Of a DNA stretch of 64,000 bases, positions 1-28,300 are shown in pieces. This stretch comes from a virus. The notes beneath the pieces were generated by a model, which saw only the letters and a program-made list of their open reading frames with translations, searched no databases and was not told the origin of the DNA. The stretch lies in the IMG/VR virus record IMGVR_UViG_3300008952_000004, positions 32,001 through 96,000 of that record; one strand, 5' to 3'. The translations under genes were made by a program, and so were the position numbers. Within the stretch, counting starts at the first letter, position 1; each line of letters begins with the position of its first letter.

Positions 1-513
1 ATAAAAAAACATAAGTGGTATAATATTTGTTTTGTACCAGAATTTCTTAGAGAAAGATGTGCTTCTATTGATTTTGTCGAGAACCATGATGTATGTATAA
101 TCGGCACAAATGAAGATTGGATATATGATAAGGTAGTATCCGCCCATGGAAAGTACCCGCAGACCTTTTGTCGCTTGACTCCGACAGAAGCTGAATTGTC
201 TAAGTATTTTAATAACATTTATAATGCAACTCTGATCACATTTGCAAATAGTTTTTTTGAAGTGTGTGAGGCAGTCGGCGCCGATTATACTAATGTAAAA
301 AATGCGATTACAACTCGAACACATATTCAGGATATATATCTTGATTGTAATAAAAACTTTAGGGGCTTTGGCGGCATGTGCTTACCCAAGGATACTAAAG
401 CTATAGCCGCACTTTGTAAAGAAAGAAACATCAGTGTGAACTTTTTCAAATCACTTTTGGAAGAAAATAACAAATATAAAATAACAGTGTTTGAAGGGAT
501 GAGGTTAAAATGA
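1..513 (+). CDS. ugd: UDP-glucose/GDP-mannose dehydrogenase family protein, 5'-truncated by the window
   Basis: Frame 1 is open from base 1 (IKKHKWYNICFVPEFLRE...). Contains the PEFLRE motif, EAELSKYFNN and GFGGMCLPKD (catalytic Cys). Confidence 0.9.
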   Translation: MKKHKWYNICFVPEFLRERCASIDFVENHDVCIIGTNEDWIYDKVVSAHGKYPQTFCRLTPTEAELSKYFNNIYNATLITFANSFFEVCEAVGADYTNVKNAITTRTHIQDIYLDCNKNFRGFGGMCLPKDTKAIAALCKERNISVNFFKSLLEENNKYKITVFEGMRLK

Positions 514-1238
514 GTAGAGAAAAAAAGATGAAAATTTTGATTCCGTTAGCAGGCGCCGGTTCTCGATTCTTTAAGGAAGGGTATACAGATCCGAAACCTC
601 TTATTGATGTTGCAGGAAAGCCAATGATACGTCGGGTTATTGAAAATATTGACATGCCAGAAATGGAACACATCTTTATTGTTCAAAAGTCACACATTGA
701 AAAGTATCCTAAAATTAAAGAATATCTTAGTGGCTGCGTCCGACGGGCTACGCTAGTTGAGATTGATGGTTTGACTGAAGGGGCAGCTTGCACAACCTTA
801 TTAGCAGAAGAATACCTAGATGACAGTCCGCTCCTTATTGTGAATTCGGATCAATGGGTTGACTGGGTACCATCACACTTTGTTAACTTTTGCAAAGATT
901 TGGACGGCTGCATTCCTTTCTTTTTATCAGACAGTCCAAAGCACTCATACTCTAGAGTGAACTACGAAACGGGTTTGGTAACTCAGGTCGCAGAAAAGCA
1001 GGTTATAAGTAATTTTGCCACAGTCGGGATATATTATTGGAAAAGTGGAAAAGAATATATCGATTGTGTTAAAGAGATGATTCGCAAAGACATCAGATTC
1101 AACAATGAATTTTACATTTGTCCCGTCTATAACATTTTGATAAATTCTAGAGGCGGGCAGGTAAAACCTTATCCAGTGTTTGAAATGAGGGGAATGGGAA
1201 CTCCCCAGGAACTAGAAAAATTTATAAATAAACTTTAA
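510..1238 (+). CDS. Sugar-phosphate nucleotidyltransferase (NTP_transferase fold)
   Basis: N-terminal LIPLAGAGSRF..GY..PKPLI signature; EGAACT, IVNSDQ, AEKQVIS, ATVGIYYW. ATGA overlap with ugd. Confidence 0.88.
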   Translation: MSREKKMKILIPLAGAGSRFFKEGYTDPKPLIDVAGKPMIRRVIENIDMPEMEHIFIVQKSHIEKYPKIKEYLSGCVRRATLVEIDGLTEGAACTTLLAEEYLDDSPLLIVNSDQWVDWVPSHFVNFCKDLDGCIPFFLSDSPKHSYSRVNYETGLVTQVAEKQVISNFATVGIYYWKSGKEYIDCVKEMIRKDIRFNNEFYICPVYNILINSRGGQVKPYPVFEMRGMGTPQELEKFINKL

Positions 1239-1252
1239 TTAAGGAGAAATAG

Positions 1253-2443
1253 ATGCGCTTGTTTAAGAGCCTTAAAGAAATTGATTTAGACAAATATATT
1301 ATTTGCACTTATTATTTGCAATCAAGCACTACGCTTCGTGACGCGGCTTGGGCTCTGGCAATCGGACAAAGTGTGGGCAATCCAAATGTAAGAAATCGCT
1401 GGGAAACAGATAAATTGTTTGAAGAACATTCTTGTCTGATCGTTGGGACAGAGGAATCCCTTGCATCCGTCAAAGCGGGCACAATCCAAATCGCTTTTCC
1501 TATTGTGAACACGGATTTCAGAACTGATGGCGTTTCACATCTACTCTGTCAGTTTATGGGTGGACAAATGGACATTGATATAGTTGAAAAGTGTCATCTA
1601 AATAAAGTTGAAATACCAAAAAGAATAGAACAGAAATATTTTCTTAAACCAAAATATGGAATTGACGGTATTAGAAAGTTTACTGGCGTCGGCGAAAAAC
1701 CACTACTTGGCGGCATCGTCAAGCCAAAAATTGGTGTAGATAGCAGGGTATTATTAGAGATGGTCAAAGAGATGGTTCAGGGCGGAGTGAACTTCATTAA
1801 AGAGGACGAAATAATGTCAAACCCTGCTTGTTGCCCGATAGAAGAAAGAGTGCCTCTGATCATGGAATATATTAAAGATAAAAATGTAATTTATTCAGTT
1901 TGTGTTAATAGCGACCCGGCACAGGTAATTGAACGGGTCAAAAAAGTTCACAGTATGGGAGCTAATTCGATCCATATAAATTTTTGGAGCGGCTTGGGAG
2001 TATATAAATCAATTCGAGAATTGGACTTACCCTTATTCATACATTTTCAAAAAAGCGGCGACAAAATTTTAACAAACAAAGAACACGCTTATCATATTTC
2101 TTGGGATGTTATTTGTGATTTGGCTGGACTAATGGGTGTTGATTTTATACATGCCGGTATGTGGGGTGGGTATATGTCAGACAACGAAACCTCACTTAGA
2201 CAAACATTACAAATTTTACATAATAGACAGGTGATGCCAGCGCTAAGTTGTGGGATGCATCCCGGTCTTGTGCAAGCAATTAATGAAAAGTTTGGTGTGA
2301 ATTACCTTGCCAATGTCGGCGGCGCCCTCCACGGTCATCCGAAAGGAACACTTGGCGGGGCAATGGCAATGCGGCAAGCAATCGATAATACTCCATCAGA
2401 GGAATATAATATTGCAATTGATAAGTGGGGCTTGATCAAATGA
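1253..2443 (+). CDS. RuBisCO-like protein (form IV RLP)
   Basis: IVKPKIG (K175/K177), GGVNFIKEDE (K201/D203/E204), IHAG, ALSCGMHPG, VGGALHGHPKG. Lacks equivalents of E60, N123, H294 and K334. AAGGAG RBS. Confidence 0.93.
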   Translation: MRLFKSLKEIDLDKYIICTYYLQSSTTLRDAAWALAIGQSVGNPNVRNRWETDKLFEEHSCLIVGTEESLASVKAGTIQIAFPIVNTDFRTDGVSHLLCQFMGGQMDIDIVEKCHLNKVEIPKRIEQKYFLKPKYGIDGIRKFTGVGEKPLLGGIVKPKIGVDSRVLLEMVKEMVQGGVNFIKEDEIMSNPACCPIEERVPLIMEYIKDKNVIYSVCVNSDPAQVIERVKKVHSMGANSIHINFWSGLGVYKSIRELDLPLFIHFQKSGDKILTNKEHAYHISWDVICDLAGLMGVDFIHAGMWGGYMSDNETSLRQTLQILHNRQVMPALSCGMHPGLVQAINEKFGVNYLANVGGALHGHPKGTLGGAMAMRQAIDNTPSEEYNIAIDKWGLIK

Positions 2444-2880
2444 TCGTGATTTCCCATAGGGGATATGAAAGTGGGGAAAATGATAAGTTGGAGAATAACC
2501 CTCTCCAGATAAGAAGGCTTTTGAGTATGGGCATAGATGTAGAGATAGATGTGTCATATGACGGTCGTTTTTTCCTGGGACACAATAGTGGCAAGTATGA
2601 AATCGATATTGATTTTTTAAAACAGGACGGGCTCTGGTGTCACGCAAAAGATAGTCTGGCATTTGAACTGATGCTGCAAAGCGGTGTGCACTGTTTTTGG
2701 CATCAGTGTGACGACTATACTTTGACCAGCCGAGGCATAATCTGGGCTTATCCCTCAAAAGACTTGCACAATCTGCATCAATCGGTGTTATTATTTCCAG
2801 AAAATATCCCCGGTGGATTAACAAGTGCTCAGCGGGAAAATCTTTACGCGATATGTACTGATTTTCCGTTTCTATATTAG
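2440..2880 (+). CDS. Short GDPD/PI-PLC-like phosphodiesterase-fold protein
   Basis: MIVISHRG...ENNP...DVEIDV...LGH...WCHAK...FWHQ.DDYTLTSRG.IWAYP. Start placed at the ATGA overlap with the RLP stop. Confidence 0.7.
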   Translation: MIVISHRGYESGENDKLENNPLQIRRLLSMGIDVEIDVSYDGRFFLGHNSGKYEIDIDFLKQDGLWCHAKDSLAFELMLQSGVHCFWHQCDDYTLTSRGIIWAYPSKDLHNLHQSVLLFPENIPGGLTSAQRENLYAICTDFPFLY

Positions 2881-2892
2881 GAGTAATTTTTT

Positions 2893-3633
2893 ATGAAAGT
2901 TGGAACAGTAATAACAATGTATGACGAACATCCGATTGCTCTTAAAAGCGTGACGGAAATAAAAAAAACGATACCAGATAGTACAATCATACTGGTGCAC
3001 TCAGATGATTGTCAAGAAACATCAGAATTAATAGCCCTCAAGGAGATGGTTACTGAATATATAATATTACCGGACATGTCTAAGGTGTTGACTAATCAAC
3101 AAGCACTGGGCGCCAATTGTATTGCTAGAAATTATAGTGCTGGATTTAAATCCCTTTATTCGTTGGGAAAACAATATGACCTAGTTGTGGCTTTGACAGC
3201 GGACACTCTTATAACCGACGGGGAATCATTTTCTAGGCGTCGGGAGGAAATGCTCCGCACCGAGCGTACAGCCTTGGTGTCACAGGCTATAGGACAGAAT
3301 TTCCATGCAGTAGCCAAGGATGGAAGTCGAATTGTTGAGGGTCGCCATCAGAGTCCTGAAATAACTGACTTTATGCCGCAGCTTTTTTTTCTTGACGGCA
3401 GTTTTGCAGCGAAACAAAGGGCGTTCGAAGACGTTGAAGTTACAAATCCGTATGCGTCGGAACAGTGTCTGGGCGATAACTTAGTTAATTGCTTGACAAA
3501 AGAAGATAAAACGTTCTATAATAGTGTTGGTAGATTAAACTGGTTCTCTCCTACATTCGCATATGCTTATGCAGATGGCGCGGAGTATCATGCATTGCAC
3601 GGCGGCATTCCAGCGGGAAGAGAAATAAAATGA
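2893..3633 (+). CDS. Possible GT-A/GT2-like glycosyltransferase
   Basis: N-terminal VITMYDE...IILVHSDD and YDLVVALTADT resemble the GT-A strand pattern; cluster context. No clear DxD motif. Confidence 0.4.
   Translation: MKVGTVITMYDEHPIALKSVTEIKKTIPDSTIILVHSDDCQETSELIALKEMVTEYIILPDMSKVLTNQQALGANCIARNYSAGFKSLYSLGKQYDLVVALTADTLITDGESFSRRREEMLRTERTALVSQAIGQNFHAVAKDGSRIVEGRHQSPEITDFMPQLFFLDGSFAAKQRAFEDVEVTNPYASEQCLGDNLVNCLTKEDKTFYNSVGRLNWFSPTFAYAYADGAEYHALHGGIPAGREIK
3493..3522 (+). promoter_or_regulatory. Consensus sigma70 promoter embedded in the 2893-3633 CDS
   Basis: TTGACA (3493-3498), 18-nt spacer, TATAAT (3517-3522); 108 nt upstream of the 3630 start. Confidence 0.7.
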
Positions 3634-4664
3634 AAAAAGTAATTATTACCGGTAGTCAAGGGTTCATAGGTTCTTATCTATGTACAGAATTTTTAGAAAG
3701 AGGATATGAAGTTGTGGGTATTGACAACTATTCCAAATATGGGGTGGTTAAAAGAGCACACGACAATCATCCAAACTTTTCTTTGTTTGAAATGGACATA
3801 TGTGAGCTAAATTCTAAAAAGGTGCAACCCCACCCATCATTTGCCGACGCTGATTATATTATAGCCAATGCAGCAATGATTGGCGGCATTAGTTACTTTC
3901 ACAAATATGCATACGACTTGTTGGCTACTAATGAGAGAATTTTAGCCTCGACATTTGATTTGGCTATCAGGCTTCATAAAGAATATAATTTAAAAAGAAT
4001 TCTTGTCTTGTCTAGTAGTATGGTATTCGAAAACACTAACAGATACCCAACTCCGGAGTACGAAGTGGAGACTTGCTCTCCACCCGCAAGTACATATGGC
4101 TTTCAGAAACTGGCATCGGAGTATTTTTGCCGAGGGGCTTATGAACAATATAAATTACCATATACAATTATAAGACCCTTTAATTGTGTCGGTATAGGCG
4201 AAGAAGAAGCAGTTGGCGAAGATGTCGTTATGTCGGGGAACATTAAAATGTTAATGAGCCATGTTCTCCCTGATCTGATTCATAAATCATTATTGTTAAG
4301 CCCCAACGATGCTTTGCCAATCCTTGGGGATGGTACACAGATTCGTCATTATACAAACGGTAAAGACATTGCAAAGGGGGTTAGAATTGCCCTAGAATCA
4401 GAAAAAGCAGTTAATGAGGATTTTAATATTTCATCCCCAGAGGCAACCACGGTTGCAGAATTAGCTGATCTTGTTTGGCAAAAAATTCACAATACAAAGG
4501 TTAAGTTTGAACATTGCCAGCCGTTTGAATATGATGTACAAATTAGAAGTCCGGACGTCAATAAAGCTAAAGATATTTTAGGTTTTATAACAGAAGTGAC
4601 TTTAGAGGAAAGTGTTGATGAGGTCATAGAATGGATGAGGAAACAAAATGAAAAATCTAGTTGA
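3630..4664 (+). CDS. NAD-dependent epimerase/dehydratase (extended SDR)
   Basis: ITGSQGFIG Rossmann motif, SSSMVFE, catalytic YGFQK, IRPFNCVG. Confidence 0.92.
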   Translation: MKKVIITGSQGFIGSYLCTEFLERGYEVVGIDNYSKYGVVKRAHDNHPNFSLFEMDICELNSKKVQPHPSFADADYIIANAAMIGGISYFHKYAYDLLATNERILASTFDLAIRLHKEYNLKRILVLSSSMVFENTNRYPTPEYEVETCSPPASTYGFQKLASEYFCRGAYEQYKLPYTIIRPFNCVGIGEEEAVGEDVVMSGNIKMLMSHVLPDLIHKSLLLSPNDALPILGDGTQIRHYTNGKDIAKGVRIALESEKAVNEDFNISSPEATTVAELADLVWQKIHNTKVKFEHCQPFEYDVQIRSPDVNKAKDILGFITEVTLEESVDEVIEWMRKQNEKSS

Positions 4665-4995
4665 TAAAATTATTAAAGAAGCAATACATAAATATGATGG
4701 AAGCTATACTTTGGATAACCCATTTGAAGAAATGATGAGCTTTGGGGAGTTGGTTGACCGATTATCAATTGTTAATTTCAAACTTTTTACTCTAAAAGAT
4801 GAGGTTATGAAACGTCCCGAAGATGACGACTTTAAGTCTTGGGCATCCGTTGAAGACGTTAAACTCGTTAAAGAACGTTCCCGACTTAAAAGATGCATTG
4901 ATGAGAAGATGGTTGCTATGATTACGCGAATCTCAGATGGAGACGCAAGTGGAGGATTTAATCCAGAAGTTAAAAAATATGGGGATAAAATATGA
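4648..4995 (+). CDS. DUF4254/DUF6165-like small helical protein
   Basis: SFGELVDRLSIVNFKLF...ERSRLKRCIDE resembles the family recalled from glycan loci. Confidence 0.5.
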   Translation: MKNLVDKIIKEAIHKYDGSYTLDNPFEEMMSFGELVDRLSIVNFKLFTLKDEVMKRPEDDDFKSWASVEDVKLVKERSRLKRCIDEKMVAMITRISDGDASGGFNPEVKKYGDKI

Positions 4996-5933
4996 AAATT
5001 TTAGTCGTAGGCGGCGCCGGTTACGTCGGTGGACATATGGTTGACCTCTTATCAAAGAATCATGATGTTACGGTATACGACCTTCTCTTATTCGAGAAGA
5101 GGTTTATGAAGCGAGTTAATTTTATTTATGGAGATGTGAGGGACACAGAAAAGCTAGGTACCATAATTAATGATTACGGTACTGTGGTGTGGCTAGCAGG
5201 TATGGTCGGCGACGGCGCATGCGCTGTAAATCCTGCCTTGACAACAGCAGTTAATTATGATTCAGTTAAGTGGCTTGTTGATAACTATAATGGAAGGATC
5301 GCTTTTCCATCAACTTGTTCAATCTATGGTATTAACAACGAACTTATTAATGAAGAGGCAAAACCAAATCCTTTGTCACTTTATGCCGCTACAAAACTTA
5401 AAGCAGAAAAATATATTCGAGCGAATGCGTCTGGTGAATATATTATCTTCAGGCTTGGTACTCTGTTTGGTTTAGGTGACGAGCATTCGCGTATACGACT
5501 GGACTTAGTAGCTAACATTCTTTCTATGCGCGCAGCTAAGGGACTTCCATTGACAGTATTTGGCGGCGAACAATGGCGACCCTTATTACATGTTAAAGAT
5601 GCTGCCCGAGCCTTTGTGTATGCAATAGAGAATAATGTTGCAGGTTATTATAATCTTTCGTACAAAAATTATACGATACAAAGTTTGGCAGAAGAAATAT
5701 CAGATTATATACCGAATACTGAGATTAAATATGTAGATATGCCGTTTGAGGATTTAAGAAATTACAAAGTTAATAATTCTAAGTTCTCGGAATATGATTG
5801 GAAACCCAAATATTCCCTTAAAAACGGGGTCGAAGAAGTGTATAATCTTATTATCCAACAAAGAATTAAGGATACAAACGATATGATATATTCAAATGCT
5901 AGATATATAAAGGAAATCGAGGGAGACAAATAA
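4992..5933 (+). CDS. Extended SDR resembling NDP-sugar C4-dehydrogenases (Cj1427-like) or epimerases
   Basis: VGGAGYVG, LAGMVGDGAC, STCSIYG, YAATK, FRLGTLFG, RLDLVAN, DLRNYKV. Confidence 0.88.
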   Translation: MKILVVGGAGYVGGHMVDLLSKNHDVTVYDLLLFEKRFMKRVNFIYGDVRDTEKLGTIINDYGTVVWLAGMVGDGACAVNPALTTAVNYDSVKWLVDNYNGRIAFPSTCSIYGINNELINEEAKPNPLSLYAATKLKAEKYIRANASGEYIIFRLGTLFGLGDEHSRIRLDLVANILSMRAAKGLPLTVFGGEQWRPLLHVKDAARAFVYAIENNVAGYYNLSYKNYTIQSLAEEISDYIPNTEIKYVDMPFEDLRNYKVNNSKFSEYDWKPKYSLKNGVEEVYNLIIQQRIKDTNDMIYSNARYIKEIEGDK

Positions 5934-6355
5934 TGGGTATTCAATTGATTGAAGGTGGAATGTTCGCTGATGATCGCGGCAAATTGAGGTTTGTGAATGG
6001 GTTTGATTTTTCTAATGTGAAAAGATTTTATCAAGTGGAAAATCATCGTCAAGGGTTCATACGGGCTTGGCACGGACATGTAAAAGAGGGGAAGTATGTT
6101 TATGTGGCTAGCGGTACCGCTCTGGTTGGCGCCGTCCCACTGGACGATGATACTGTCACACCTAAGAAATATGTTTTAACTTCTGAAAAGCCACAGGTTT
6201 TGTGGATTCCTCCGAATCACGCTAATGGGTTTATGAATCTTGAAGAAGGTACAGTTATATTGTTCTTCTCAACTTCTACCTTAGAAGAGAGTAAGGGGGA
6301 CGATATTAGATTTCCTTATGACAAGTGGAACATTTGGGAGGAGGATTATCGATAA
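5933..6355 (+). CDS. RmlC/WxcM-like cupin, NDP-sugar 3,5-epimerase family
   Basis: DDRGKLRF, RAWHGH, LWIPPNHANGF. Confidence 0.88.
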   Translation: MGIQLIEGGMFADDRGKLRFVNGFDFSNVKRFYQVENHRQGFIRAWHGHVKEGKYVYVASGTALVGAVPLDDDTVTPKKYVLTSEKPQVLWIPPNHANGFMNLEEGTVILFFSTSTLEESKGDDIRFPYDKWNIWEEDYR

Positions 6356-6645
6356 TGACTTTTAAACAATACTATGATTATTATTTAAGCTTACACCAAA
6401 ACAAATGGACCCGTCGCTTACACGTTATGGGGCAGGCGGCAACAGTCTTATTTGTTATTTTGTGTGTATCTAAAGGCGCTTGGTTAGCACTCTTATTTGC
6501 CCCTTTTGTTGTGTATCCTTTCGCTTGGAGCGGTCATTTCTTTTTTGAGAAAAATATACCGGCTGCTTTTTCTAAACCCATCTGGGCTAAAGCGTGTGAT
6601 TGGCTAATGTTAAGAGATATTATTTTTGGGAGAATAAAATGGTAA
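6355..6645 (+). CDS. DUF962 / Mpo1-like membrane protein
   Basis: YYLSLHQNKWTRRLH, two hydrophobic segments, PFAWSGHFFFEKNIPA. Start at the TAATG overlap. Confidence 0.85.
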   Translation: MTFKQYYDYYLSLHQNKWTRRLHVMGQAATVLFVILCVSKGAWLALLFAPFVVYPFAWSGHFFFEKNIPAAFSKPIWAKACDWLMLRDIIFGRIKW

Positions 6646-7469
6646 AAGTACTAATTCTTGGAAGCACCGGCATGCTCGGCAATGCTGTTGGCAAGTGGTT
6701 TTCTAAACAGTCTGACCGGTATGAAGTGACATTCACTCACAGGGATTATGATTTAGCTAGCACATATTATGAAGACAAAAATCTTCTTCATTTTGATTGT
6801 TTGGAGGATAAGTTAGTTGATCTTGATTTATCTGGGTATGATTATGTCATTAATTGTATTGGTACAATTAAACCATTTATGTCCTCAAACCCACTATCTG
6901 CAATTAAAATAAATTCTGTTTTTCCCTGGACACTGGCTTGTGTCTGCAAGGGCGCAGGCGCAAAGCTGATTCACATTACAACTGATTGCGTATATTCAGG
7001 GGCGGTAGGACAGTATACTGAAGATGATGAGCACGATGCGCGAGATGCATATGGAAAAAGTAAGTCTCTCGGCGAACCAGATAACTGTATGGTACTGAGA
7101 ACGAGTATTATTGGCGAAGAAGTTCATAAAAACGCTAGCTTGATTGAGTGGGTAAAAAGTCAACGAGGCAACACAGTCAATGGCTATATTAACCACGACT
7201 GGAATGGAATCACAACCACTCAGTATGCGAAGACCTGCGACTATATCATTTCGAACGATATGTATGTTGAGGGTACGTACCACGTGATGTCGCCGAAACC
7301 AGTCAATAAATATGAGCTTGTTACTCTGCTCGGACAGAAATATAATTTAGATCTAACGGTCAATGAATTCGAAGCATCGATTAGAGTTGATCGCACACTT
7401 GGAACTGTAAAGAGTTTGTGTGGGGATTTGAACATACCATCCATCCAACAACAAATAGCGGAGATGTAA
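6639..7469 (+). CDS. rmlD: dTDP-4-dehydrorhamnose reductase-like protein
   Basis: ILGSTGMLG, VINCIG, IHITTDCVYSG, YGKSK, LRTSIIG, WNGITT. Confidence 0.85.
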   Translation: MVKVLILGSTGMLGNAVGKWFSKQSDRYEVTFTHRDYDLASTYYEDKNLLHFDCLEDKLVDLDLSGYDYVINCIGTIKPFMSSNPLSAIKINSVFPWTLACVCKGAGAKLIHITTDCVYSGAVGQYTEDDEHDARDAYGKSKSLGEPDNCMVLRTSIIGEEVHKNASLIEWVKSQRGNTVNGYINHDWNGITTTQYAKTCDYIISNDMYVEGTYHVMSPKPVNKYELVTLLGQKYNLDLTVNEFEASIRVDRTLGTVKSLCGDLNIPSIQQQIAEM

Positions 7470-7471
7470 AG

Positions 7472-7666
7472 GTGAATTTAGATTTATCAAAGCAAGAATT
7501 AACAGTACTCAGAAACCACTTAGCGAAGGAGTTGAAATATTTTTATCAAACTCCCACTGAGTGGGATTTTTGGAAAGAAACTTGCCATTTAGAAGAAATG
7601 GACTTAATCTTAAAAAAGATCGATTATCATTTAGATTTAATGAAAAAACATACAGGAGAAAAATAA
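7472..7666 (+). CDS. Hypothetical protein, 64 aa
   Basis: GTG start just after the rmlD stop; TAATG coupling to the next gene. Confidence 0.5.
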   Translation: MNLDLSKQELTVLRNHLAKELKYFYQTPTEWDFWKETCHLEEMDLILKKIDYHLDLMKKHTGEK

Positions 7667-14555: not shown

Positions 14556-17500
14556 ATGTCTCACGAGGAAGAAAAGAAACAACAGCAAGAAGAAGAGGCT
14601 GGGACAATGTATCTCAAGGGAATTCCTATTGTCTCAGGTTCAATGCTCGCTGTACAGGCTCTGAAAAATTATAATTTTAAGAATTTAGAGGAGAAAACCA
14701 CAGCGTTGCTCGATGAGGCTAAAGGCTCTAAGGGTAGTGATACGTCTATGGCTGCAACATTAGCTCCATATCTTGGTGCGGCAGCAGCACTGGCTAAAGC
14801 AGCCATCCCGCAGTATATGACGGTTCTTGGCGGTATAAGTAAAGAATTTCCAGCCGCAACGCATTACATACGGGATCAAACGATTGGTGTACCAGGCGCA
14901 CGGGAAGAGGCGGTACCCGCCGATGCTGACGCAGCAGTTAAAGAAGCTGAAAAGGTAGCTGATCAAGCAGCAGGCGGTGGAGATCAGGCAGCAGGCGGTG
15001 GAGAGATTGTTTTTACAGATGAAGAAGCAGGCACCATATACGCTAATGAACCAGATGAGAACACCGACAGTTCGGAAGTCGCCGGAGAGGACAAGAAAGA
15101 CGACGCCCCCGCAGGCGCCCAAGAAATTGAACTACCTTTGCAGGGCACCGAAGTAGAAAAGAATCCATTTCACCATTATGCAGAACCATGGCTAAAACCA
15201 AAAAAATATTCACTATACAGCAAACCATCCAGAGACTCTCGTTGGGAAGTAGGGCATATTTTTTCTCACATGGGCACAGACCCACAAAAACCGAGCGACC
15301 TCACTTTAGTGAGGGTGCTTAAACCATTCTTGGGTACCAAAAGAGATGTACATCGTATAGAAGTTATTAATCCGAAGCCAATAATGAGCGCTGTATTCAG
15401 CGCGTACAAAGGTCCTTTATATATAGAGTCTAGTGCTTGTCATCCCTTGCCGGGAATTCCAGAGTTTGAGCCAATCTCTGCGGCAGGCGCCTCCAGCGCA
15501 CACGGTTATCCCTGGCCATACGATTGGAAAGAACTAGGTCCAATTGGGACCGGAGAATGGTGTTATTTAGAAGAAAAGCAACAGATGTATTACGCAAGGT
15601 TATACCAACCAGGGCTTAGGACGAAACCAATTAAATTGGAGGAGGGTTCATCTTGGATCACTGGCGCAAGTGCAGAAATAGAATTACCATTACCAAACCC
15701 AGAGGATGGATACGATGGTGCGAAATATGACGTACCAGAACCGGATAATGAAAAGCCATTCAAAACACTAAAAGAATTTGTTGAATTTGCAGATGAAAAA
15801 GCTATACTACAACGCGGAGTCACACAAATATTACACTTTTATGGAAGGATAAATGCATATGAAAGTCCGCCCAAAGACCTGTTGGATATGATTGTTGACA
15901 CCGAAATGGCATATATCCCATCGCCACCACACGGATTTTATCTAGATCCGAGAACCGGATATATTGACATTGCAGTTGCTCTACGTGCTTCGTATGTAAA
16001 TGCCATTCCACGATATCTATACAGTGATGACGATTTAAATAAATATTTTAGCAATACCGATGGATATTCTTATAGTTTCGCCTATAGCACACTACAGGCA
16101 AAAATAGACTTTATAACGAAACATACTACTGACCGCGCAACAGAACTACAGCCTAAATTTCCAAAGCAAGCAGCAAAACTTATTCGGGTTGTGCAATATT
16201 TGAACTCTTTCCCGGCAAGGTTTAAAAGATTTGTTTTATTAAATGAGGTACCTGAAGAAGAATTAACTGGCACAGACCCACACTTCGAGCTTGGTTTTTC
16301 AAAAGATTTTCAGATATCGTATGTGTTGATGGGGAAAGCGGACAAGCGCTCAACCCCCCTCACCATTGCTTTACCGATGCTGACAAGTGTAAATCAGCGT
16401 CCCGGCACAACGGCAATTGCATCTCACCACTTTCTTTATTCGTTTGAAGATATGGAAAAGAAGGTGCAAGATCCTGCCTTGACAGCAATTGAGTTCGCTC
16501 AAAGATATTACTATCCAGTTACTGCAATAGTTTTTAAACCAACAGAAGCAGAATCAGAAGAAAATCCTCGAACCACGACCCCAGCTATAGCGCAAGCTGC
16601 CGCTGTTTCGAAACACGAAGATCCCGCTGGAGTCGGAAAGTCCACATCCCAAATAATGAGGGAAAAACAAAGTTTAGACAATGTAGATCATAAAATTCAA
16701 CTTTCAAAGTCTCGTGAAAAAGAACAAGAGTTTACAGGCGATAATATAATCGAAGACATAGAATTTTTGAAGGCTCAGGCAAAGGATCCCGAAGGCATTT
16801 ATAAACATGTTCTTAACAAAACAAGTATCAAGGAGTTGTCTGCAATCGCCCTTGCTGATCTGACAAAAGATTTTGGCTTTGCTGATCAGCAAAAAATGGT
16901 GCTTGATTCGGTAATAACAAAAGCTACCGGTGCTCAAATAGAAAAAATGGCAAGCATTATACAGGAAAAATATCCAGGCGAATATTCCAAAGCTCTCGCT
17001 AAAGAATTGGATGCTGCACAAGAATATTTTGAAACCACTGGTACCCCAAAAGAAGGCACAGTTCCACCGGCTATAAAAAACTCAGATGGTAGCATCAACG
17101 ACGTTAAATTAGCACGGGCAATAGAAACTAATATGGCACTATCAGGGTGGCATAAAAATATTCAGTCACCTCAACAAAACCAAGGACAACAAATCTCTGA
17201 AGAAATGAGCCCGGACCAAAAGAAACAAATGAGATATTTCTCTGGTTTCGAATATGGTTCGGGGTTAAAATTTGGTGAAGGATATTCTTTGCCAACAGTC
17301 GATGGTATATTATCAGATAACACAACCATTAGCTCTCCAGCAAGAAAGGCAGATATTTTAAAACGCCTTACTAACAATTCCGGCAATGAGTTTAAATTGC
17401 CAATATCGATATTGGAAAAAACCATTCTGCCGATTGTTCCATACGCAGACGTAAGGAGTACTTTGTCTCAATATATGGGGAATGTTAATGACGTTATGGA

Positions 17501-20500
17501 AGAAATTCAAGAACCGACATCCCTTAAAGAACTTGCACCTCCGACAGTGACACTTCCTGATAATTCATTCACCTCCGACCCTACACCGGGTGTTGTTGAT
17601 GCCGTGGTTGCTGGCATTCGAGAAGCAATTGCCAAAGGTCTGATTGCAACTATAACGATGGTGCTGGATCGAATCAAAAAATCGGCTGCCGACGCATTTG
17701 GAGAAAGATTCGGCGCCATGGTGGGAAAAATTCCACTAGATATGATCAAAGCAGCGTTCCACAACGCGGGTGTGCCCCCCGGCACAGGTGCGGAATTTTT
17801 TGAGAATCTAGCCAAGCAGGCTACCGTTTCTGAAATGGAAGATCTTTTCGCTGGAAGAACCAGCGAAGAAACGGATTCTTTGGTAATGGTTACCGCAGGC
17901 ATGACTCCCGGCATGTTCGAGCATCTTCAAAATATTTCTAATGCGTTTGACAATTTATCAGATTTAGTCGAGCCAGACATTTTTCGCAAGGCGAGAGAGT
18001 CAGAAGCAGAGGCAGAAGTAGAAGATGCGCCTTGGTCTGGACTTCTTTGTGAAGATGATGATTTTCCAGATGAAGACAACCGCGACCGAACAGGGCTAGA
18101 GGAGGCACAACACGAGCGTGACCGGGATTTGGCTAATCGATTAAAAGATCTTATCGATGGGGCAAATAATTTATTGTCGGATATTCCAAGTACAATGTCC
18201 GATTGTGGTGAACAGGGGTTGATTTCTCGTGATCCACCATCAATGCAGATGGCTAATAAATTAGCACTGGATACAATATTTGAATCTGTTGAAATGGCGT
18301 TTTCTCAAGATGCAACCGGATTCATGGATAGTTTATTGTTGAAGAAGTCAAGAGATGCCAAAAAGGGTGATCCTGATTGGATTCCAACATATGGAAAAGA
18401 ACTTGGTATCGATCAGATGACAGGTGCGAAGATCGATCCTAATCCAACAAAAAAGATGGCAGTGGCTCACAATAAGAAAAATTCTAAAATCGAAGTATCA
18501 GTACTACCCTCTTTGAAAAAAAATCTTAGCGACGTTCATAAAAAGAATTTTAAATTATATTCTGAATATGTCGGCGATGAAGAAAAGGGAGAAGGTATTA
18601 CTTGGATTTCGATGAGCGGAGAAGTCGATCCTAAAAAAACTAAACTACCAATTACATTTGCTGCTGAAGAAGCTCAACTCGCACAGGCTAAAGCCACTGT
18701 AAAAAAAATACAAAATAAAATGTCGGACCTGAATTCTTCAGGTTTAGGTCTTGGGGCAGATGCCCTTCACCATCTTCTAAATGATATGGAGAAAGCCGAT
18801 AACGCATTTACCGCAGCCAAAGAAGTACTCGACCAAGCAATAAAAGCAGCACCATCTAAAATTAAAAAAGATAAGTCGTTCGATTTGTCAAACAAGGTTG
18901 AAGAAAAGCTGCTCGAATTTTCTATGACCTGGCCAGAATCCAGCGGTCCCGTTGTCGATAGACATTCTGTCACCTTGGGAGACGGCGACCAAAAATATGT
19001 TTTAGCAAATAAAACAAAATCCCCTTCAAATAATTTGAGCGAAACGACGTTTTATAAGATTTTGCCAGGTTCGACCGGTGAACTCGGGGTTTACAGAACT
19101 GCCCAGTCTCAAGCATTTGCAAACTATATAACCAACAGGTTTACCAACGCTGGATATGCTCTTGCTGGTATACCAGAAGATTTTGAAATGTCAACCGGCT
19201 TTCAAGAATATGCATTAAACTGGGAACAAGTATTTTTCAGATTGTTCAAAAAGACTGCACGACAGGCGAGCCTATCCAACCTTTTTGAACTAGAGGAATT
19301 GTTGGAGGTATCATTATCAAAGAAATATGAAAAAACATTATGCGCCCCAGATCCGGAGGCGTTTGATCTACTTTCAGTTTCTGAAACCAAGGAAGAAGTG
19401 GAGGATGATTATGAACAATCTTGTAAGCCATCTAACAAGAGCGATGCCGCAGGCTCCCCGTTCGAAGAGGCAGCACTAGGAGGTGTACTTAAAGTATATT
19501 TAAGATTATGTGTTGCCGAGGTGTTATTGCGTTCTATATTTATATATTCTCAATTTAATCCCGAAGAAGTATTCGAAGATGGTCTGTTTATGGATTATGT
19601 TGTAGACATGCTTCGAAAAGATCTTGAAAATTCAGATCCAGATTTTTTTTCAAGATTGAAAAAACAAGCTCAAATCATAATCTCAAATAAAAGGAAGAGT
19701 GGAGATCTCAAAAATATATACAATATAAACGATATGACCTTATTAGATGATTTAGATGAGACAGGTTATCAAGAGGAGCGAGCCAATGCTGCATTTAAAT
19801 ATATTGTTTTGGAACAAGCGGCAGACCTATCATATAAATTACAACAGGCACTTGGCACCCAAGCGCCAAAAATATATAAAAGGTTTTTAAACAGCACCGG
19901 CACTCCTGAACCTTTTAATATTGTCACCCCTCAAACGAGTCTAGGTTCAGGCTGGATTCGCACCATAGATGCTCCAAAGGCAAGTGTCGTTGGTACCGGC
20001 GACCAGCGCTTCATTGCTAGAAATGAAGATAAAGTAAAGAACTTAGGAGGTAATCAATCGACTGGAACCAGTCAAACCACCTGGGAGGGCGAGATTACTT
20101 ATGATACTGCGCGTCTAATGTACCCAGATTTAGCCATGGTTGGCGGCACTTTCGTTCTAGAAAAATATGTGCGTGTTGAAGATCTGGACAGGCTCCCTGA
20201 TGATTTCAAAGATCCCTATGGATTTCGCCTCCGGCACGGTGGACCGGACGCACCGGATGAAGGACCCGGAGAGCCCGACACACTAGCCTCGTGGTGTAAA
20301 ACGACACCACATCTTTCTGGCGTTGTAAATATTTCGGCTTTTCGCCAATATCTTGATCAGGTGTTTGAGATACATCCAGCAGACGCAAAGGTTTCTAGCT
20401 TTTTCAAACCATTGAAGTTTGGAATGCGTCTGATGTGGATACCCCCGACCAATCAAAACTTCAAGGCGCAACTTTATGCGTCGGAAACTTCTGAGGTAGT

Positions 20501-25376: not shown

Positions 25377-28300
25377 ATGGGCGGCGGAATAAAGGATTTA
25401 TTTGGGAATTCGGATAGTGTTTTATCAAAGACACATATCAGAGATATAGCTAATGCTGATTCACCAGTTGAGTCATCAGAATATATTGAAAAATATCTTT
25501 TGGAAAAAGAGAGATTTCTTCCGACTGCCGATTTTTCTACAGCTAGTAATTTTGCTATGTATGGTTCCGCAGAACAATACGTAACAGATGCTTTACAAAA
25601 TATATACCAATACTACCCATATGATGGTTCTTTGACGGAGAAGATTGAGTGGATCAACACAGCGAATTATTATGATATATATATGTTCCAATTTTTGTAT
25701 CCGCGAACTTGTGGTTACGCCGTGTTTTCTCCCGACGGCTGGGGCACGCAAACTGATTTAATTGCTGATGCTGGGCTGACACCACAGCACGTATTTGGAT
25801 TGTCAAACAATCCGGAGTATATTCAGCTTAAAGCCGGTCCACACCCAGATCCAGATGCTGCCGCAAAAACTTTATCAAAACAATTTCCAGAACCTTGGGA
25901 CGGCACAGCCAATATATGGGACGATACCACAGGGGTTAATCGTGTTTCTAATATTGTTTTAGATCCTGCAAAGGGGGTTACTACTGAGTTTTGGTTTAAA
26001 AAAGATGGTTATGTTTCCTCGTCCGCAACAACAAGATTTGAATATTTGTTTGACGTATGGAATGGACAGAAGGGGACAGCAGAGGGGGAAACCTATGGAC
26101 GCTATTCTATTTTACATGACGGAACATCTACCGGAGCCATTAAATTAGGAGTGATGTCTGGGTCACAACTTCTTACGTGCGATTCCGGCTTAACAACCGC
26201 CGAGGTGTTTGATAATAAATGGCACCATATCGCGATTGCCTTTCAAAGTGGCTCGGATTGGGTTGAGGTTAATACTTTTTTCGACGGACAACACCATACT
26301 CGACAAACCAGTGTTGATCAAGCCAACGTTGTTATTGGAGAAATAACCGGCTCTCTGATCGCAAATATTGGCGCTGCGCGAATACCTACCATTTCTCAGG
26401 CAGGTACTGCTGCGCTCGCCTCGGCTAAAATAAAAGATGGCTATGGAAAACTATCCGGCTCCATTGACGAGTTTAGGTTTTGGAAAACAGCTAGGACTCC
26501 AAAACAGATCGGTCGTTTCTGGTTTACTCAAATTGCCGGTGGTACAAACACAGATAATAATAAATTCTCAGGATCCGCCGCACCGGTAGATTTAGGTTTT
26601 TATTATAAATTTAACGAGGGAAATACCGGGGACAATACAGTTGATTCGACCGTCTTGGACTATTCGGGACGCATATCGAATGGTACTTGGACCGGGTTTA
26701 TTTCTGACAAGTCGCGTGTTGCTGGGGCAATGAAATCTGCGATGATAGAATCTTCAGCTTCGGTATCTGAGTTTAAAGATCCGATCATTTATTCGACACA
26801 TCCAGACGTCACCGCTCTATCTGATCGATTATTATCAGAAGGAAAAGAGTGGGATTTAAACAACAATTCATCACTATATCATACAATGCCAGAGTGGATT
26901 ATTTCTGAAGATGCTGACGAAAATGGAAATACACTCAAAAAGTTGGCACAAATGCTCGGTGTATATTTTGATACGCTACACATGCAGATAAACAGTTTGC
27001 CTTCATTAGCTGAGAAGCGATACCCAGTAACCGATTTTATTGTACACGATCCAAATTTCATAGATTATAACCTTGGTGGTCCGAATACCGGTAAGACTAG
27101 AGAATACACATTTTTTCAGAAGCCGAAACCTACTGCAAAAATGTCGGTAGAACATTCTGGTATGGAAGCTTCAGAATTGTTTTCCGACGTCACTATCTTG
27201 AACCAACTGGCTAGTCGTGATGAACATCGGGAATTCGAATCTAAACTATATGATATTAAAAATACGATATATCAAAACATATATAATAATCTAACTTATA
27301 TCTACAAAACAAAAGGTACATTTAAAAGCTTCCGGAATCTTATGCATTGCTTTGGGATTGATGAGGATCTAATCGCCATTAACTTATACGCCAATGATGA
27401 ATCTTTTAAATATGATGATTCGCGCTATCGTTCTAAAACATTGCGGAAAAATTATATAGATTTTGCGACTTCCGATAGACAACAATCTACGGTGTTTCAA
27501 TCATCTAGTGTTTCCATATCTGATTCTCTTAGCTATATCCCCGGTGCTTATGATAAGCCCATGACGGTTGAGGCAAACATAATTTTCCCACTGAAGAAAG
27601 ATGAAAATGACACAAACTATTATGAATATAATTATTATTCTAGTTCATTGTTTGGTTGTCATGAAGCACTCCCGTCCGCGCCTACCAATTATACTTGGCA
27701 CTCAAACGATTCAGCGTCTTTTCAAGTCTATGTGGTAAGGCAAGAATTTCGCGGTAAAGATGCAAAATTTATTCTTTCTTCAAGTAATGGATATTTTCCA
27801 ACGTTAACAACACCCACGTTTAAAGATGTATATAACAATACTAATTGGCATTTTGCTGTACGCTTAGCTCCATCACAAGATGCGGTCAGTGGTTCGGTAA
27901 TCACAGGCTCATCTCCCGATCATTGGGATCTGGAGTTTTATGGTGTTAATACAGCACTAGATCAAATCGATAAAAAGTTTCACGTGTCGGGAAGTATATC
28001 GACTGTTGACGCACAAAATAATTTTGCCGCTCTAGCAAAAAGATTTTATCTTGGTGCCCATAGAACAAATTTTACTGGCAGTACTGTGTTAACAAACACA
28101 GATATTAAGGTGGGTTCCTTCTCTGTCTGGCAAGATCGTTTGTCGGACGAAGAAATAAATTCACATGCAAAAGATCCGAACAACGTCGGTCGAGATTATC
28201 CTTATGAAAACGCATATATGTTTGAGGGCGTAGACCCAAATATTGACATCACATATATTCCTAGGATTAAAACACATATTTTAAATTGGCAATTCGCAAC

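What the first reader, a model, noticed from the sequence alone, without database searches (positions are those of the whole stretch)
510..2880. Nucleotidyltransferase-RLP-phosphodiesterase triad as a candidate route to an unusual activated sugar
Seen: three adjacent genes, with the RLP and PDE-like genes joined by an ATGA overlap, placed directly after ugd. Inference: the RLP rearranges a sugar (bis)phosphate, possibly to a branched or epimerised polyol or acid; the GDPD-fold protein trims or opens a phosphate; the transferase makes the NDP donor. I know of no characterised pathway with this combination.
Basis: inference. Interest (0 to 1): 0.78.

Follow-up and report, generated by a model that had tools for sequence, protein, structure and literature searches.

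The report
Phage RuBisCO-like sugar-activation gene cassette
A marine phage carries three tightly linked genes (a sugar nucleotidyltransferase, a non-carbon-fixing RuBisCO relative and a miniature phosphodiesterase) that recur together, sometimes fused, in many phages, SAR11 bacteria and tiny DPANN archaea, pointing to an undescribed route to an activated sugar for surface glycans.

Summary
Three co-directional genes lie at 510-1238 (nucleotidyltransferase, NT), 1253-2443 (RuBisCO-like protein, RLP) and 2440-2880 (146-aa GDPD-fold protein, ATGA overlap), inside a glycan operon of a 190-kb marine myovirus.

All 30 related viral loci carry all three genes within 8 kb, in at least five gene orders. 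SAR11 single-cell genomes, DPANN archaea and a Verrucomicrobium carry them too. Metagenomes hold NT-RLP, NT-cupin, NT-HAD, NT-GDPD and HAD-GDPD fusions.

The RLP keeps the Mg/carbamate site and the P1 phosphate site, but lacks the residues needed for carboxylation and the MtnW base. The NT has the fold and motifs of sugar-1-phosphate transferases. The small protein is a pared-down GDPD barrel that keeps the GDPD N-terminal catalytic motifs.

The substrate and the order of steps remain inferred. My favoured order is RLP isomerises or enolises a host ketose phosphate, NT activates it, and the GDPD-like enzyme performs a phosphodiester step at the glycan interface.

A divergent phage RLP clade was reported in 2018 without a function or genomic context. 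I found no paper describing this cassette. Other first-stage notes of this scan touch the same stretch of this genome.

The parts
510..1238 (+). Nucleotidyltransferase (NT), 242 aa. It is of the sugar-1-phosphate nucleotidyltransferase type. A possible alternative start is ATG 528.
   Evidence: PF00483 E 1e-10, and phrog_3980 E 1e-59 covering the N-terminal half of a 495-position profile. The motif P-L-A-G-A-G-S-R-F is kept in all RLP-linked NTs. Invariant residues include E162-K163 and D114. The model has pLDDT 94. VIA gives Z 28.9 to 4evw and Z 24-25 to GalU/RmlA/GlmU over about 225 residues.
1253..2443 (+). RuBisCO-like protein (RLP, form IV-like), 396 aa, not a carboxylase.
   Evidence: PF00016 E 4e-32. 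Nearest solved chains are the MtnW enolase 2oej (127 bits) and form III RuBisCO. Residues invariant over 47 homologues: K157/K159, K183/D185/E186, H300, S332/G334/G356/G357. The equivalents of N123, H294, R295, H298 and K334 are replaced by G104-Q105, Q266, K267, D270 and Y307.
2440..2880 (+). Miniature GDPD-superfamily phosphodiesterase-like protein, 146 aa, translationally coupled to the RLP (ATGA).
   Evidence: phrog_34507 E 6e-17. Invariant residues include H6, R7, E18, N19, E35, D37, H48, H68, K70, H88 and D91. The family profile hits the GDPD chain 7e0v at E 0.003 over the HRG..EN..ExD..HD block. The model has pLDDT 95. VIA gives Z 10.9, rmsd 3.1 A, 137 of 146 residues to TM1621 GDPD, and the top 31 rows are all GDPD or related phospholipase D entries.
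1..513 (+). 3' part of a truncated UDP-Glc/GDP-Man dehydrogenase-family gene (265 aa in full) directly upstream. Context only.
   Evidence: PF00984, plus part of PF03721 in the full ORF L063:17716-18513. No C-terminal domain.
2893..7469 (+). Downstream genes of the same operon. They are a 246-aa protein of no known family, a GalE/UXS-like SDR (3630-4664), a Cj1427-like SDR (4992-5933), an RmlC-like cupin (5933-6355) and an RmlD-like reductase (6600-7469).
   Evidence: Pfam and NCBIfam. PDB searches put SDR 4992-5933 against 6vo6 at E 4e-39, with the next hit at 1e-19, and also cover the cupin and reductase. A terminator-like hairpin at 7552-7576 follows.

Best explanation
The three genes are a mobile biosynthetic cassette that turns a phosphorylated host ketose into a nucleotide-linked sugar-like unit for a phage-directed glycan.

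Well supported:
- The genes act together.
- The RLP is a Mg2+/carbamate-dependent enolising or isomerising enzyme, not a carboxylase. It binds a phosphate next to a carbonyl at the P1 site, and probably a second anionic group.
- The NT is a catalytically intact nucleotidyltransferase of the sugar-1-phosphate class.
- The 146-aa protein is a minimal GDPD-type barrel that keeps the GDPD N-terminal catalytic motifs.

Inferred order, my favoured reading at about 0.3 for the full order:
1. The RLP rearranges a host 1-phospho-ketose. This could be a 1,3-type carbonyl shift, or a ketose-1-phosphate to aldose-1-phosphate isomerisation through a phosphoenolate.
2. The NT couples the product to NMP, giving NDP-X.
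3. The GDPD-like enzyme carries out a phosphodiester reaction on the activated unit at the interface with the glycan. That reaction would be transfer of X-phosphate with release of NMP, or opening or trimming of a phosphodiester.
4. Variable SDR, cupin, aminotransferase and methyltransferase genes then tailor the unit.
For: Linkage:
- The triad is present in 30 of 30 viral loci, in at least 5 arrangements.
- SAR11 has the order GDPD-NT'-RLP-NT. DPANN has RLP-NT plus GDPD-NT'. A Verrucomicrobium has GDPD-RLP-NT.
- Eight NT-RLP fusion clusters of about 637 aa sit among the best 120 RLP homologues.
- Other fusions: NT-cupin, NT'-GDPD, and HAD-GDPD and NT-GDPD.

RLP chemistry:
- Metal ligands and the P1 glycines are invariant.
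- K177, H327 and a Lys at the R295 position are kept, unlike in MtnW, where they are M, F and F.
- K334, N123 and H294 are replaced.

NT:
- The GxGxR motif is kept in every RLP-linked NT, but lost in the paralogue NT'.
- Fold and the E-K motif are as listed under parts.

GDPD-like:
- Catalytic motifs and fold.
- Full-length Pfam GDPD proteins sit at the equivalent place in archaea and the Verrucomicrobium.
- The domain is fused to GT61, WavE, DUF7796 and methyltransferases as well as to HAD, NT and a kinase. This places it between precursor supply and the glycan.

No other entry enzymes:
- The phage has no MtnA/IF-2B, SIS/GmhA, GHMP kinase or HAD genes. The cassette must therefore start from a ready host sugar phosphate.

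Glycan context.
Against: - No substrate or product is known, and every step order is inference.
- The NT looks like anomeric sugar-1-phosphate transferases. This favours an aldose-1-phosphate over a terminal ketose or polyol phosphate.
- To my knowledge GDPD-superfamily enzymes are hydrolases or cyclising lyases. I know of no NDP-dependent phosphotransferase of this fold.
- In other lineages the NT + GDPD-like pair goes with a beta-phosphoglucomutase-family HAD instead of an RLP. The RLP may therefore be an exchangeable feeder rather than the core.
- The GDPD-like domain's many fusion partners could mean a general housekeeping role in these clusters.
- The downstream SDR, cupin and reductase genes may act on a different NDP-sugar.
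Confidence: 0.5

Rival explanations
1. Aldose-1-phosphate supply model. The RLP converts a host ketose 1-phosphate or 1,n-bisphosphate directly into the matching aldose 1-phosphate. Candidate substrates are fructose-1,6-bisphosphate, sedoheptulose-1,7-bisphosphate and ribulose-1,5-bisphosphate. The reaction would be the reverse of the ribose-1,5-bisphosphate/MtnA isomerase reaction, through a 1-phosphoenolate as in MtnW. The RLP would thereby replace an isomerase plus kinase, or a mutase. The NT then makes an NDP-hexose or NDP-heptose, which the Cj1427-like SDR, the cupin and the reductase tailor. The GDPD-like enzyme would remove a distal phosphoester or open a 1,2-cyclic phosphate.
For: - The NT fold and E-K motif match sugar-1-phosphate transferases.
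- The phage has no kinase, mutase or SIS isomerase.
- The RLP keeps part of the second-phosphate site.
- SDR 4992-5933 is by far closest to 6vo6. [quoted passage not shown]
- In other systems the NT is fused to a beta-phosphoglucomutase-family HAD, which handles sugar 1,n-bisphosphates.
- An Azospirillum locus reads GDPD-HAD-NT-SDR-SDR, like 6-deoxyheptose clusters.
Against: - No RLP is known to catalyse this reaction.
- A GDPD-type diesterase is an odd choice for removing a monoester.
- The GDPD-like gene is also present where a HAD could already do that job.
- Its fusions to glycosyltransferases and methyltransferases are not explained.
- The Cj1427-like gene is not conserved next to the triad in other loci.
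Confidence: 0.25
2. Feed-in (salvage) model. The GDPD-like enzyme acts first and releases a phosphomonoester from a phosphodiester or cyclic phosphate. The RLP rearranges it and the NT activates it.
For: - To my knowledge, hydrolysis is the activity known for GDPD enzymes.
- The GDPD-like protein is cytosolic in form and always next to NT or NT'.
- It is fused to precursor-level enzymes: HAD, a P-loop kinase, ribulose-phosphate 3-epimerase and a PMI-type cupin.
Against: - No abundant host phosphodiester with a keto-sugar is evident.
- Glycerol-3-phosphate, the usual GDPD product, is already abundant and has no carbonyl for an RLP.
- Fusions to GT61, WavE, DUF7796 and methyltransferases point to a late step.
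Confidence: 0.15
3. The RLP works on an already nucleotide-linked ketose. The NT acts first and the RLP enolises or isomerises NDP-X, which would make it the first RuBisCO-superfamily enzyme acting on a nucleotide sugar.
For: - NT-RLP fusions have the NT at the N-terminus.
- The second-phosphate site is remodelled in an invariant way: Q266-K267-S268-G269-D270, W304 and Y307.
Against: - No precedent exists.
- The P1 site geometry expects a phosphate one carbon away from the carbonyl.
- Fusion order says nothing about reaction order.
Confidence: 0.1

Closest known systems
Phage-encoded form-IV-like RLP clade (Jaffe et al. 2018, PMC6389311)
   Same: About 80 divergent RLPs on phage contigs from IMG/VR and groundwater or subsurface metagenomes, at least some of them Myoviridae. 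They lack key RuBisCO residues and have no known function. The window's RLP fits this description.
   Different: That paper does not mention nucleotidyltransferases, glycosyl genes or gene neighbours of the phage RLPs. It links the clade to Beckwithbacteria. I found cellular relatives in SAR11, DPANN and Verrucomicrobia. I did not align the window's RLP to their sequences.
MtnW/MtnX/MtnD of Bacillus methionine salvage (RLP enolase, HAD phosphatase, cupin dioxygenase)
   Same: MtnW is the best solved sequence match (2oej, E 7e-36). The metal site and P1 site are shared. In related loci the RLP travels with a small cupin (27 of 30 viral loci) and sometimes with a HAD (L008, L055).
   Different: The position of the MtnW base (Lys98 as I recall it) is occupied by Q in that alignment and by G in the form III alignment. 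NCBIfam scores are far below the cut-offs (159 against 409). K177, H327 and a Lys at the R295 position are kept here but lost in MtnW. The context is glycan synthesis with an NT, not methionine salvage. No MtnA or MtnB was found.
Rhodospirillum rubrum MTA-isoprenoid shunt (RLP 1,3-isomerase plus cupin methylsulfurylase giving DXP, then IspD-type cytidylyl transfer). Recalled from memory.
   Same: The enzyme logic is the same: RLP, then cupin, then nucleotidyltransferase acting on a pentulose phosphate.
   Different: The window and its closest relatives lack the cupin. The NT is closer to GalU/RmlA than to IspD.
[quoted passage not shown]
   Same: An NT followed by a Cj1427-like SDR, an RmlC-like cupin and a reductase. 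HddC is among the weak PDB hits of the NT.
   Different: The phage has no GmhA, HddA or GmhB. The RLP and the GDPD-like gene stand where those would be. The cupin and reductase are closer to RmlC/RmlD than to Cj1430/Cj1428.
CDP-polyol routes with a phosphotransferase (TarI/TarJ/TarL, ISPD/FKTN/FKRP, LicC/LicD). Recalled from memory.
   Same: The logic is the same: activate X-phosphate as NDP-X, then install X-phosphate as a phosphodiester on a glycan. A protein with the RXYLT1 C-terminal domain (RXYLT1 is, as I recall, a ribitol-phosphate xylosyltransferase) sits next to the HAD-NT + GDPD-like pair in other phages.
   Different: No LicD, TagF or CDP-alcohol transferase is present. A GDPD-fold enzyme in that role would be new.

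Membership tests
RuBisCO large-chain superfamily | Match to the catalytic-domain profile PF00016 above the gathering score | tested here: met
   112 bits against 30.1. 99 solved chains match at E <= 0.001.
RuBisCO large-chain superfamily | Carbamylated Lys plus Asp/Glu metal ligands (K201, D203, E204), and K175 | tested here: met
   K183, D185, E186 and K157 are invariant in 47 homologues and align to GG(M/V)D(Y/L)(I/V)KDDE and KPK of form III and MtnW.
Bona fide carboxylating RuBisCO (forms I-III) | Residues needed for carboxylation: K334 (loop 6), N123, H294, R295, E60/T65/W66 | tested here: not met
   Y307 stands at K334, G104/Q105 at N123, Q266 at H294 and K267 at R295. The N-terminal block reads GQSVGNP instead of E..TW. 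The residue roles come from established RuBisCO literature, recalled from memory. The NCBIfam form III score is 167 against a cut-off of 497.
MtnW / YkrW 2,3-diketo-5-methylthiopentyl-1-phosphate enolase | General-base Lys at the N123 position, and a score above the equivalog cut-off | tested here: not met
   Q (or G) aligns with the Lys of F-G-K-L-S-L in 2oej. Scores are 158.9 against 409 and 132 against 513.6.
3-oxo-isoapionate-4-phosphate RLPs (OiaX type) | Score above the NCBIfam equivalog cut-off | tested here: not met
   115.5 bits against 700.
IV-GOS RLP clade of Tabita et al. 2007 | Phylogenetic placement with the Global Ocean Sampling RLP sequences | not testable with these tools
   No reference sequences of that clade were at hand. 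Marine origin makes membership plausible. This is a lead recalled from memory only.
Sugar-1-phosphate nucleotidyltransferases (PF00483; RmlA/GalU/GlmU type) | Profile match, the N-terminal G-x-G-x-R signature with a downstream Lys, and the fold | tested here: met
   PF00483 at 42 bits against 21.2. A-G-A-G-S-R-F is kept in the RLP-linked NTs; K29, E162-K163 and D114 are invariant in the 24-sequence NT alignment. Z 24-29 over 220-230 residues.
Sugar-1-phosphate nucleotidyltransferases | Use of an anomeric sugar 1-phosphate, and which NTP is used | not testable with these tools
   No equivalog model is reached (best 45.9 bits against 292). The nearest structure, 4evw, has no assigned substrate in its entry name.
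Glycerophosphodiester phosphodiesterase (GDPD, PF03009) | Pfam profile match | tested here: not met
   No Pfam hit for the window protein or for any of 26 family members. Only the first ~50 residues match GDPD by profile (E 0.003 against PDB; hhalign E 1e-4).
Glycerophosphodiester phosphodiesterase (GDPD, PF03009) | Catalytic His-Arg, Glu-Asn, Glu-x-Asp and second His motifs | tested here: met
   H6-R7, E18-N19, E35-x-D37 and H48 are invariant in 26 sequences, D49 nearly so, and they align to the HRG/EN/EIDV/HD block of 7e0v. P120-E121 is a candidate third metal ligand (inference).
Glycerophosphodiester phosphodiesterase (GDPD, PF03009) | Full (beta/alpha)8 barrel of about 220-250 residues | tested here: inconclusive
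   The protein has 146 residues, yet 137 of them superpose on TM1621 GDPD at Z 10.9, rmsd 3.1 A. It is a stripped-down barrel. Full-length GDPDs occupy the same genomic place in DPANN and a Verrucomicrobium.
GDP-heptose pathway (GmhA-HddA-GmhB-HddC) | Presence of the SIS isomerase, the GHMP kinase and the HAD phosphatase | tested here: not met
   No PF01380, PF13580 or PF00288 hit, and no HAD homologue, in the 189.7-kb phage record. The controls rang.

The most novel reading that the evidence does not exclude
A large, mostly viral clade of RuBisCO-like proteins is an enzyme of nucleotide-sugar biosynthesis. Working with, and sometimes fused to, a nucleotidyltransferase, it converts a central ketose (bis)phosphate in one step into the phosphate ester that is then nucleotide-activated. 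This would bypass the usual isomerase/kinase/mutase route. A minimal GDPD-fold enzyme then installs or processes the unit as a phosphodiester on a virion or cell-surface glycan. That would add a new reaction class to the RuBisCO superfamily, and a new transferase role to the GDPD fold.
Probability: 0.25. Interest if true: 0.9.

Novelty: new variant of a known kind. Interest (0 to 1): 0.76.

Why it matters
RuBisCO-like proteins are a classic case of orphan enzyme clades. The phage clade has had no context or function since its description in 2018, and marine RLPs of unknown role date back to the 2007 ocean surveys.

The hard-wired link to a nucleotidyltransferase and a GDPD-fold enzyme gives a concrete, cheap experiment: three small soluble proteins, a panel of NTPs, and a short list of ketose phosphates.

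It also reclassifies what is routinely scored as a viral 'carbon-fixation auxiliary gene' as a glycan-biosynthesis gene. That matters for ecological readings of viral metagenomes.

Finally, it points to a shared surface-glycan building block in marine phages, SAR11 and DPANN archaea.

Tried and rejected
- DNA (blastn) and protein (tblastn) searches of 50,697 isolate phage records found nothing for the 8-kb block or for the RLP. The cassette is known only from uncultured viruses. The terminase is nearest to Flavobacterium phage 'immuto' at 46%, so the host is unknown.
- Pfam, NCBIfam and single-sequence PDB searches gave nothing for the GDPD-like protein. Only the profile and the fold searches worked.
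- The Foldseek E-values for its model were weak (best 2e-3). The VIA second look gave clear rows.
- The protein atlas returned only viral hypothetical clusters. The nearest named cluster carried GDPD in 25% of members at score 0.86, which is a lead only.
- Literature searches found no description of the cassette. They combined RLP with phage, nucleotidyltransferase, GDPD, Pelagibacter, nucleotide sugar and gene neighbourhood.
- Carboxylase and MtnW enolase readings are rejected on active-site residues.
- The idea that HAD and RLP are strict alternatives is rejected: L008 and L055 carry both.
- The idea that the window's 246-aa, 115-aa or 106-aa ORFs are the missing cupin or partners is rejected: no similarity was found.
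- Complex prediction (NT with GDPD-like) was not available.
- No RNA holder is listed for the stretch.
- I could not retrieve the 4evw sequence or the paper giving the 6VO6 accession. The identity of 6vo6 as Cj1427 therefore rests on memory and on the entry's molecule name.
Full report
**What the window is.** The window is bases 32001-96000 of a 189.7-kb IMG/VR virus record that CheckV rates as complete. All large ORFs are on the + strand. PHROGs names a large terminase (54940-56517), a portal (56537-58429) and baseplate wedge proteins. The large terminase is 46% identical to that of Flavobacterium myophage 'immuto', and 35-44% identical to those of Microcystis and Synechococcus phages. Public runs that hold the stretch are marine metagenomes. 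The finding lies near the end of a long glycan operon. The upstream genes include GT4 and GT2 glycosyltransferases, WecB, a PIG-L deacetylase and a formyltransferase. A terminator-like hairpin at 7552-7576 closes the operon.

**The observation.**
- NT, 510-1238: PF00483 match; phrog_3980 E 1e-59.
- RLP, 1253-2443: PF00016 E 4e-32, preceded by GGAG.
- A 146-aa gene, 2440-2880: its ATG overlaps the RLP stop (ATGA). Alignment with 25 homologues fixes this start.

NT may start at 510, which is an ATGA overlap with the upstream gene, or at 528, which matches its relatives. The upstream 'ugd' is only 265 aa. It has part of the NAD domain and the central domain but no C-terminal UDP-binding domain.

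**Is the grouping real?** I fetched relatives through the RLP alone.
- All 30 viral loci (53-74% identical RLPs) also carry an NT and a GDPD-like gene within 8 kb.
- The order and orientation differ between lineages. I saw NT-RLP-GDPD; NT.cupin-GDPD-RLP; GDPD then reversed NT.cupin then RLP; RLP-NT.cupin then reversed GDPD; and looser layouts. Proximity is therefore kept by selection, not only by descent.
- The genome collection gave 20 cellular loci at 43-47% identity.
- Seven of the eight Pelagibacteraceae loci read GDPD-NT'-RLP-NT; the eighth (L042) is a 2.6-kb contig holding only RLP-NT.
- DPANN archaea read RLP-NT, with a full-length Pfam GDPD and NT' close by. In L033 the GDPD and NT' are fused (505 aa).
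- A Verrucomicrobium reads GDPD-RLP-NT.
- In a maximum-likelihood tree the 27 viral RLPs form one clade (100/100). The SAR11 RLPs form another, nested among DPANN and Verrucomicrobia.
- Only 2 of 151 sampled Pelagibacteraceae genomes have the gene, as expected for a strain-variable glycan island. In L037 the cassette sits among GT17-, GT61- and DUF4422-type genes.

**Fusions.** Among the best 120 RLP homologues, eight clusters are 634-651-aa proteins with PF00483 followed by PF00016. They are 56-59% identical to the window's NT and 70-72% identical to its RLP. One sits on a contig that also encodes the small cupin, the GDPD-like protein and a HAD-methyltransferase. Other fusions:
- NT-cupin, 350-470 aa, in most freshwater viral loci.
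- NT-HAD, 457 aa, a very common form in marine contigs, and directly followed by a GDPD-like gene.
- The GDPD-like domain fused to HAD (7 clusters), GT61 (10), methyltransferases (10), DUF7796 (4), WavE (2), NT (2), GT-D (2) and ACP (2). Single clusters fuse it to a PMI-type cupin, a ribulose-phosphate 3-epimerase and a P-loop kinase.

An Azospirillum O-antigen-type locus reads MT-GDPD-HAD-NT.NT-NT-like-SDR-SDR-GT. The deepest pair is therefore NT + GDPD-like. The RLP (usually with a small cupin in phages), a beta-phosphoglucomutase-family HAD, or both, join that pair. The window's phage has the RLP only: no HAD, no cupin of that type and no second NT.

**The RLP.** The best solved matches are MtnW enolases (2oej, 127 bits) and form III RuBisCO (121 bits), so the protein is a deep branch. 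All NCBIfam equivalog scores are far below their cut-offs. I mapped invariant residues of 47 family members onto the HMMER alignments. The residue roles given here are recalled from memory.
- Kept: K157-P-K159 (K175/K177), K183/D185/E186 (carbamate Lys and metal ligands), H300 (H327), S332/G334 (S379/G381) and G356-G357 (G403/G404, the P1 phosphate site).
- Replaced, in an invariant way: G104-Q105-x-D107 for the N123 region, Q266-K267-S268-G269-D270 for H294-R295-..-H298, and W304..Y307 for loop 6 with K334.
- The E60/T65/W66 block is absent.

So it is not a carboxylase. It also lacks the Lys that serves as base in MtnW. Compared with MtnW it retains K177, H327 and a cationic residue at position 295. 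In RuBisCO these contact the second phosphate. This suggests a substrate with a 1-phospho-2-keto head and a second anionic group.

**The NT.** Every RLP-adjacent NT keeps P-(M/L)-A-G-x-G-(S/K/Q)-R-F. The paralogue NT' of SAR11 and DPANN reads A-G-(P/K)-(N/D)-x-x-F, with the second Gly and the Arg lost. NT' is probably non-catalytic or does something else. The model (pLDDT 94) superposes on 4evw at Z 28.9, and on GalU, RmlA and GlmU at Z 24-25 over about 225 residues. E162-K163 is invariant. It lines up, from memory of RmlA, with the E-K pair that holds the sugar phosphate. This favours a sugar-1-phosphate substrate but does not prove it.

**The GDPD-like protein.** Neither Pfam nor NCBIfam recognises it. 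The family alignment shows invariant H-R, E-N, E-x-D and G-H (D nearly invariant), and further invariant His, Lys and Asp residues. Its profile matches the same block of Pyrococcus GDPD and of the archaeal full-length GDPD from L047. The model (pLDDT 95) aligns 137 of 146 residues with Thermotoga GDPD at Z 10.9. The first 31 rows are GDPD or related phospholipase D entries. It is a minimal barrel that keeps the GDPD N-terminal catalytic motifs.

**What the phage lacks.** The whole record has no MtnA/R15P-isomerase family gene, no SIS or GmhA, no GHMP kinase and no HAD. The controls rang in each search. The cassette must therefore start from a phosphorylated host metabolite.

**Downstream genes.** SDR 4992-5933 matches 6vo6 at E 4e-39, and the next hit is at 1e-19. 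From memory, 6vo6 is Cj1427, the GDP-heptose C4-dehydrogenase. Its pathway is described in PMC10680097. An RmlC-like cupin and an RmlD-like reductase follow. These tailoring genes differ between loci, which carry aminotransferases, TylF- and FkbM-type methyltransferases, or a B12 radical-SAM enzyme. The triad is the constant part.

**Mechanism.** The following is shown:
- the linkage of the three genes;
- the family and fold assignments;
- conservation of the key active-site residues in all three proteins;
- the absence of carboxylase residues.

The following is inferred. The RLP enolises or isomerises a 1-phospho-ketose. The NT activates the product. The GDPD-like enzyme acts on a phosphodiester at the border between precursor and glycan. 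I favour a late role for the GDPD-like enzyme for three reasons. It is fused to glycosyltransferases and methyltransferases as well as to precursor enzymes. It is fused to the degenerate NT', which could serve as an NDP-X binding module. No other phosphotransferase is present. The main rival is that the RLP supplies an aldose 1-phosphate directly from a ketose bisphosphate. That model explains the NT's sugar-1-phosphate look, the missing kinase and mutase, and the heptose-type tailoring enzyme. It leaves the GDPD-like role open. A feed-in role for the GDPD-like enzyme, and an RLP acting on NDP-linked ketose, remain possible.

**Comparison and novelty.** Jaffe et al. (2018) reported about 80 divergent RLPs on phage contigs, at least some of them Myoviridae, with function unknown. 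Their text has no mention of nucleotidyl or glycosyl genes, or of neighbours of these RLPs. I found no paper describing the cassette. It resembles MtnW-MtnX-MtnD, and the R. rubrum RLP-cupin shunt, in enzyme types. It resembles CDP-polyol and GDP-heptose routes in logic. It is a member of none of them. I class it as a new variant of a known kind: a new functional context, and probably a new reaction, for RLPs.

Noticed in passing
window 1-513 (full ORF L063:17716-18513): The 'ugd' upstream of the triad is only 265 aa. It has part of the NAD-binding domain and the central domain of the UDP-Glc/GDP-Man dehydrogenase family, but no C-terminal UDP-binding domain. Either it is a minimal or degenerate dehydrogenase, or its missing parts are supplied elsewhere.
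   Followed up: partly
L034-L038, L041, L045 (SAR11); L033, L039, L040, L044, L047-L051 (DPANN): A second NT paralogue (NT') always sits next to, or is fused to, the GDPD gene. It has lost the G-x-G-x-R signature (it reads A-G-P-N-x-x-F or A-G-K-D-x-N-F). It is possibly a non-catalytic nucleotide-binding partner, like GalF or GMPPA.
   Followed up: partly
27 of 30 viral loci, e.g. L008:7666-7989, and L055:10254-10580: A ~107-aa cupin (weak Cupin_7 match) travels with the RLP. It is free-standing or fused to the C-terminus of the NT. One metagenomic GDPD-like fusion carries a PMI-type cupin. The cupin is absent from the window, from L002-L004 and from all cellular loci.
   Followed up: partly
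L056/L057/L058 (marine phage contigs) and L059-L062 (Azospirillum and another bacterium): A parallel cassette exists without the RLP. It consists of a beta-phosphoglucomutase-family HAD fused or adjacent to the same NT family, followed by a GDPD-like gene. In the phages it sits next to a protein with an RXYLT1 C-terminal domain, and to WavE-like and GT9-like genes. In Azospirillum it sits next to Wzt and two SDRs.
   Followed up: partly
metagenomic proteins P0234-P0353: The 146-aa GDPD-like domain is a frequent fusion partner of GT61, FkbM- and TylF-type methyltransferases, DUF7796, WavE, GT-D, ACP and a P-loop kinase. It also occurs in a record named for a chytrid fungus (Spizellomyces) and in one named for a giant virus (Homavirus).
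   Followed up: no
window 3493-3522: A perfect sigma-70 consensus (TTGACA, 18 nt, TATAAT; 12 of 12) lies inside the 246-aa gene, about 110 nt before the SDR gene at 3630. It is possibly an internal promoter. This is a consensus match only.
   Followed up: no
window 2893-3633: A 246-aa protein with no Pfam, NCBIfam or PHROG match, and no homologue in any of the 61 fetched loci. Its N-terminus (VITMYDE...) is reminiscent of GT-A glycosyltransferases. This is an impression only.
   Followed up: partly
window 4992-5933: This SDR is much closer to PDB 6vo6 (E 4e-39) than to any other solved SDR. [quoted passage not shown] The match hints that a heptose, or a manno-configured NDP-sugar, is tailored here.
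   Followed up: partly
G014:C20:824-2005 (a Pelagibacteraceae genome): The only other RLP hit among 151 sampled Pelagibacteraceae genomes is 396 aa long, the viral length, and 47% identical to the SAR11 type. It may be phage-derived DNA in that assembly.
   Followed up: no
window 14556-21617 and 25377-35081: Two giant ORFs (2353 and 3234 aa) lie in the tail/baseplate module downstream of the glycan operon. They were not examined.
   Followed up: no
L047:12207-13817 and L047:6064-7866: In a Woesearchaeota locus the cassette is flanked by a B12-binding radical-SAM enzyme and by a GHMP-kinase-NT fusion (600 aa). This suggests C-methylation and a second activated sugar in the same glycan.
   Followed up: no
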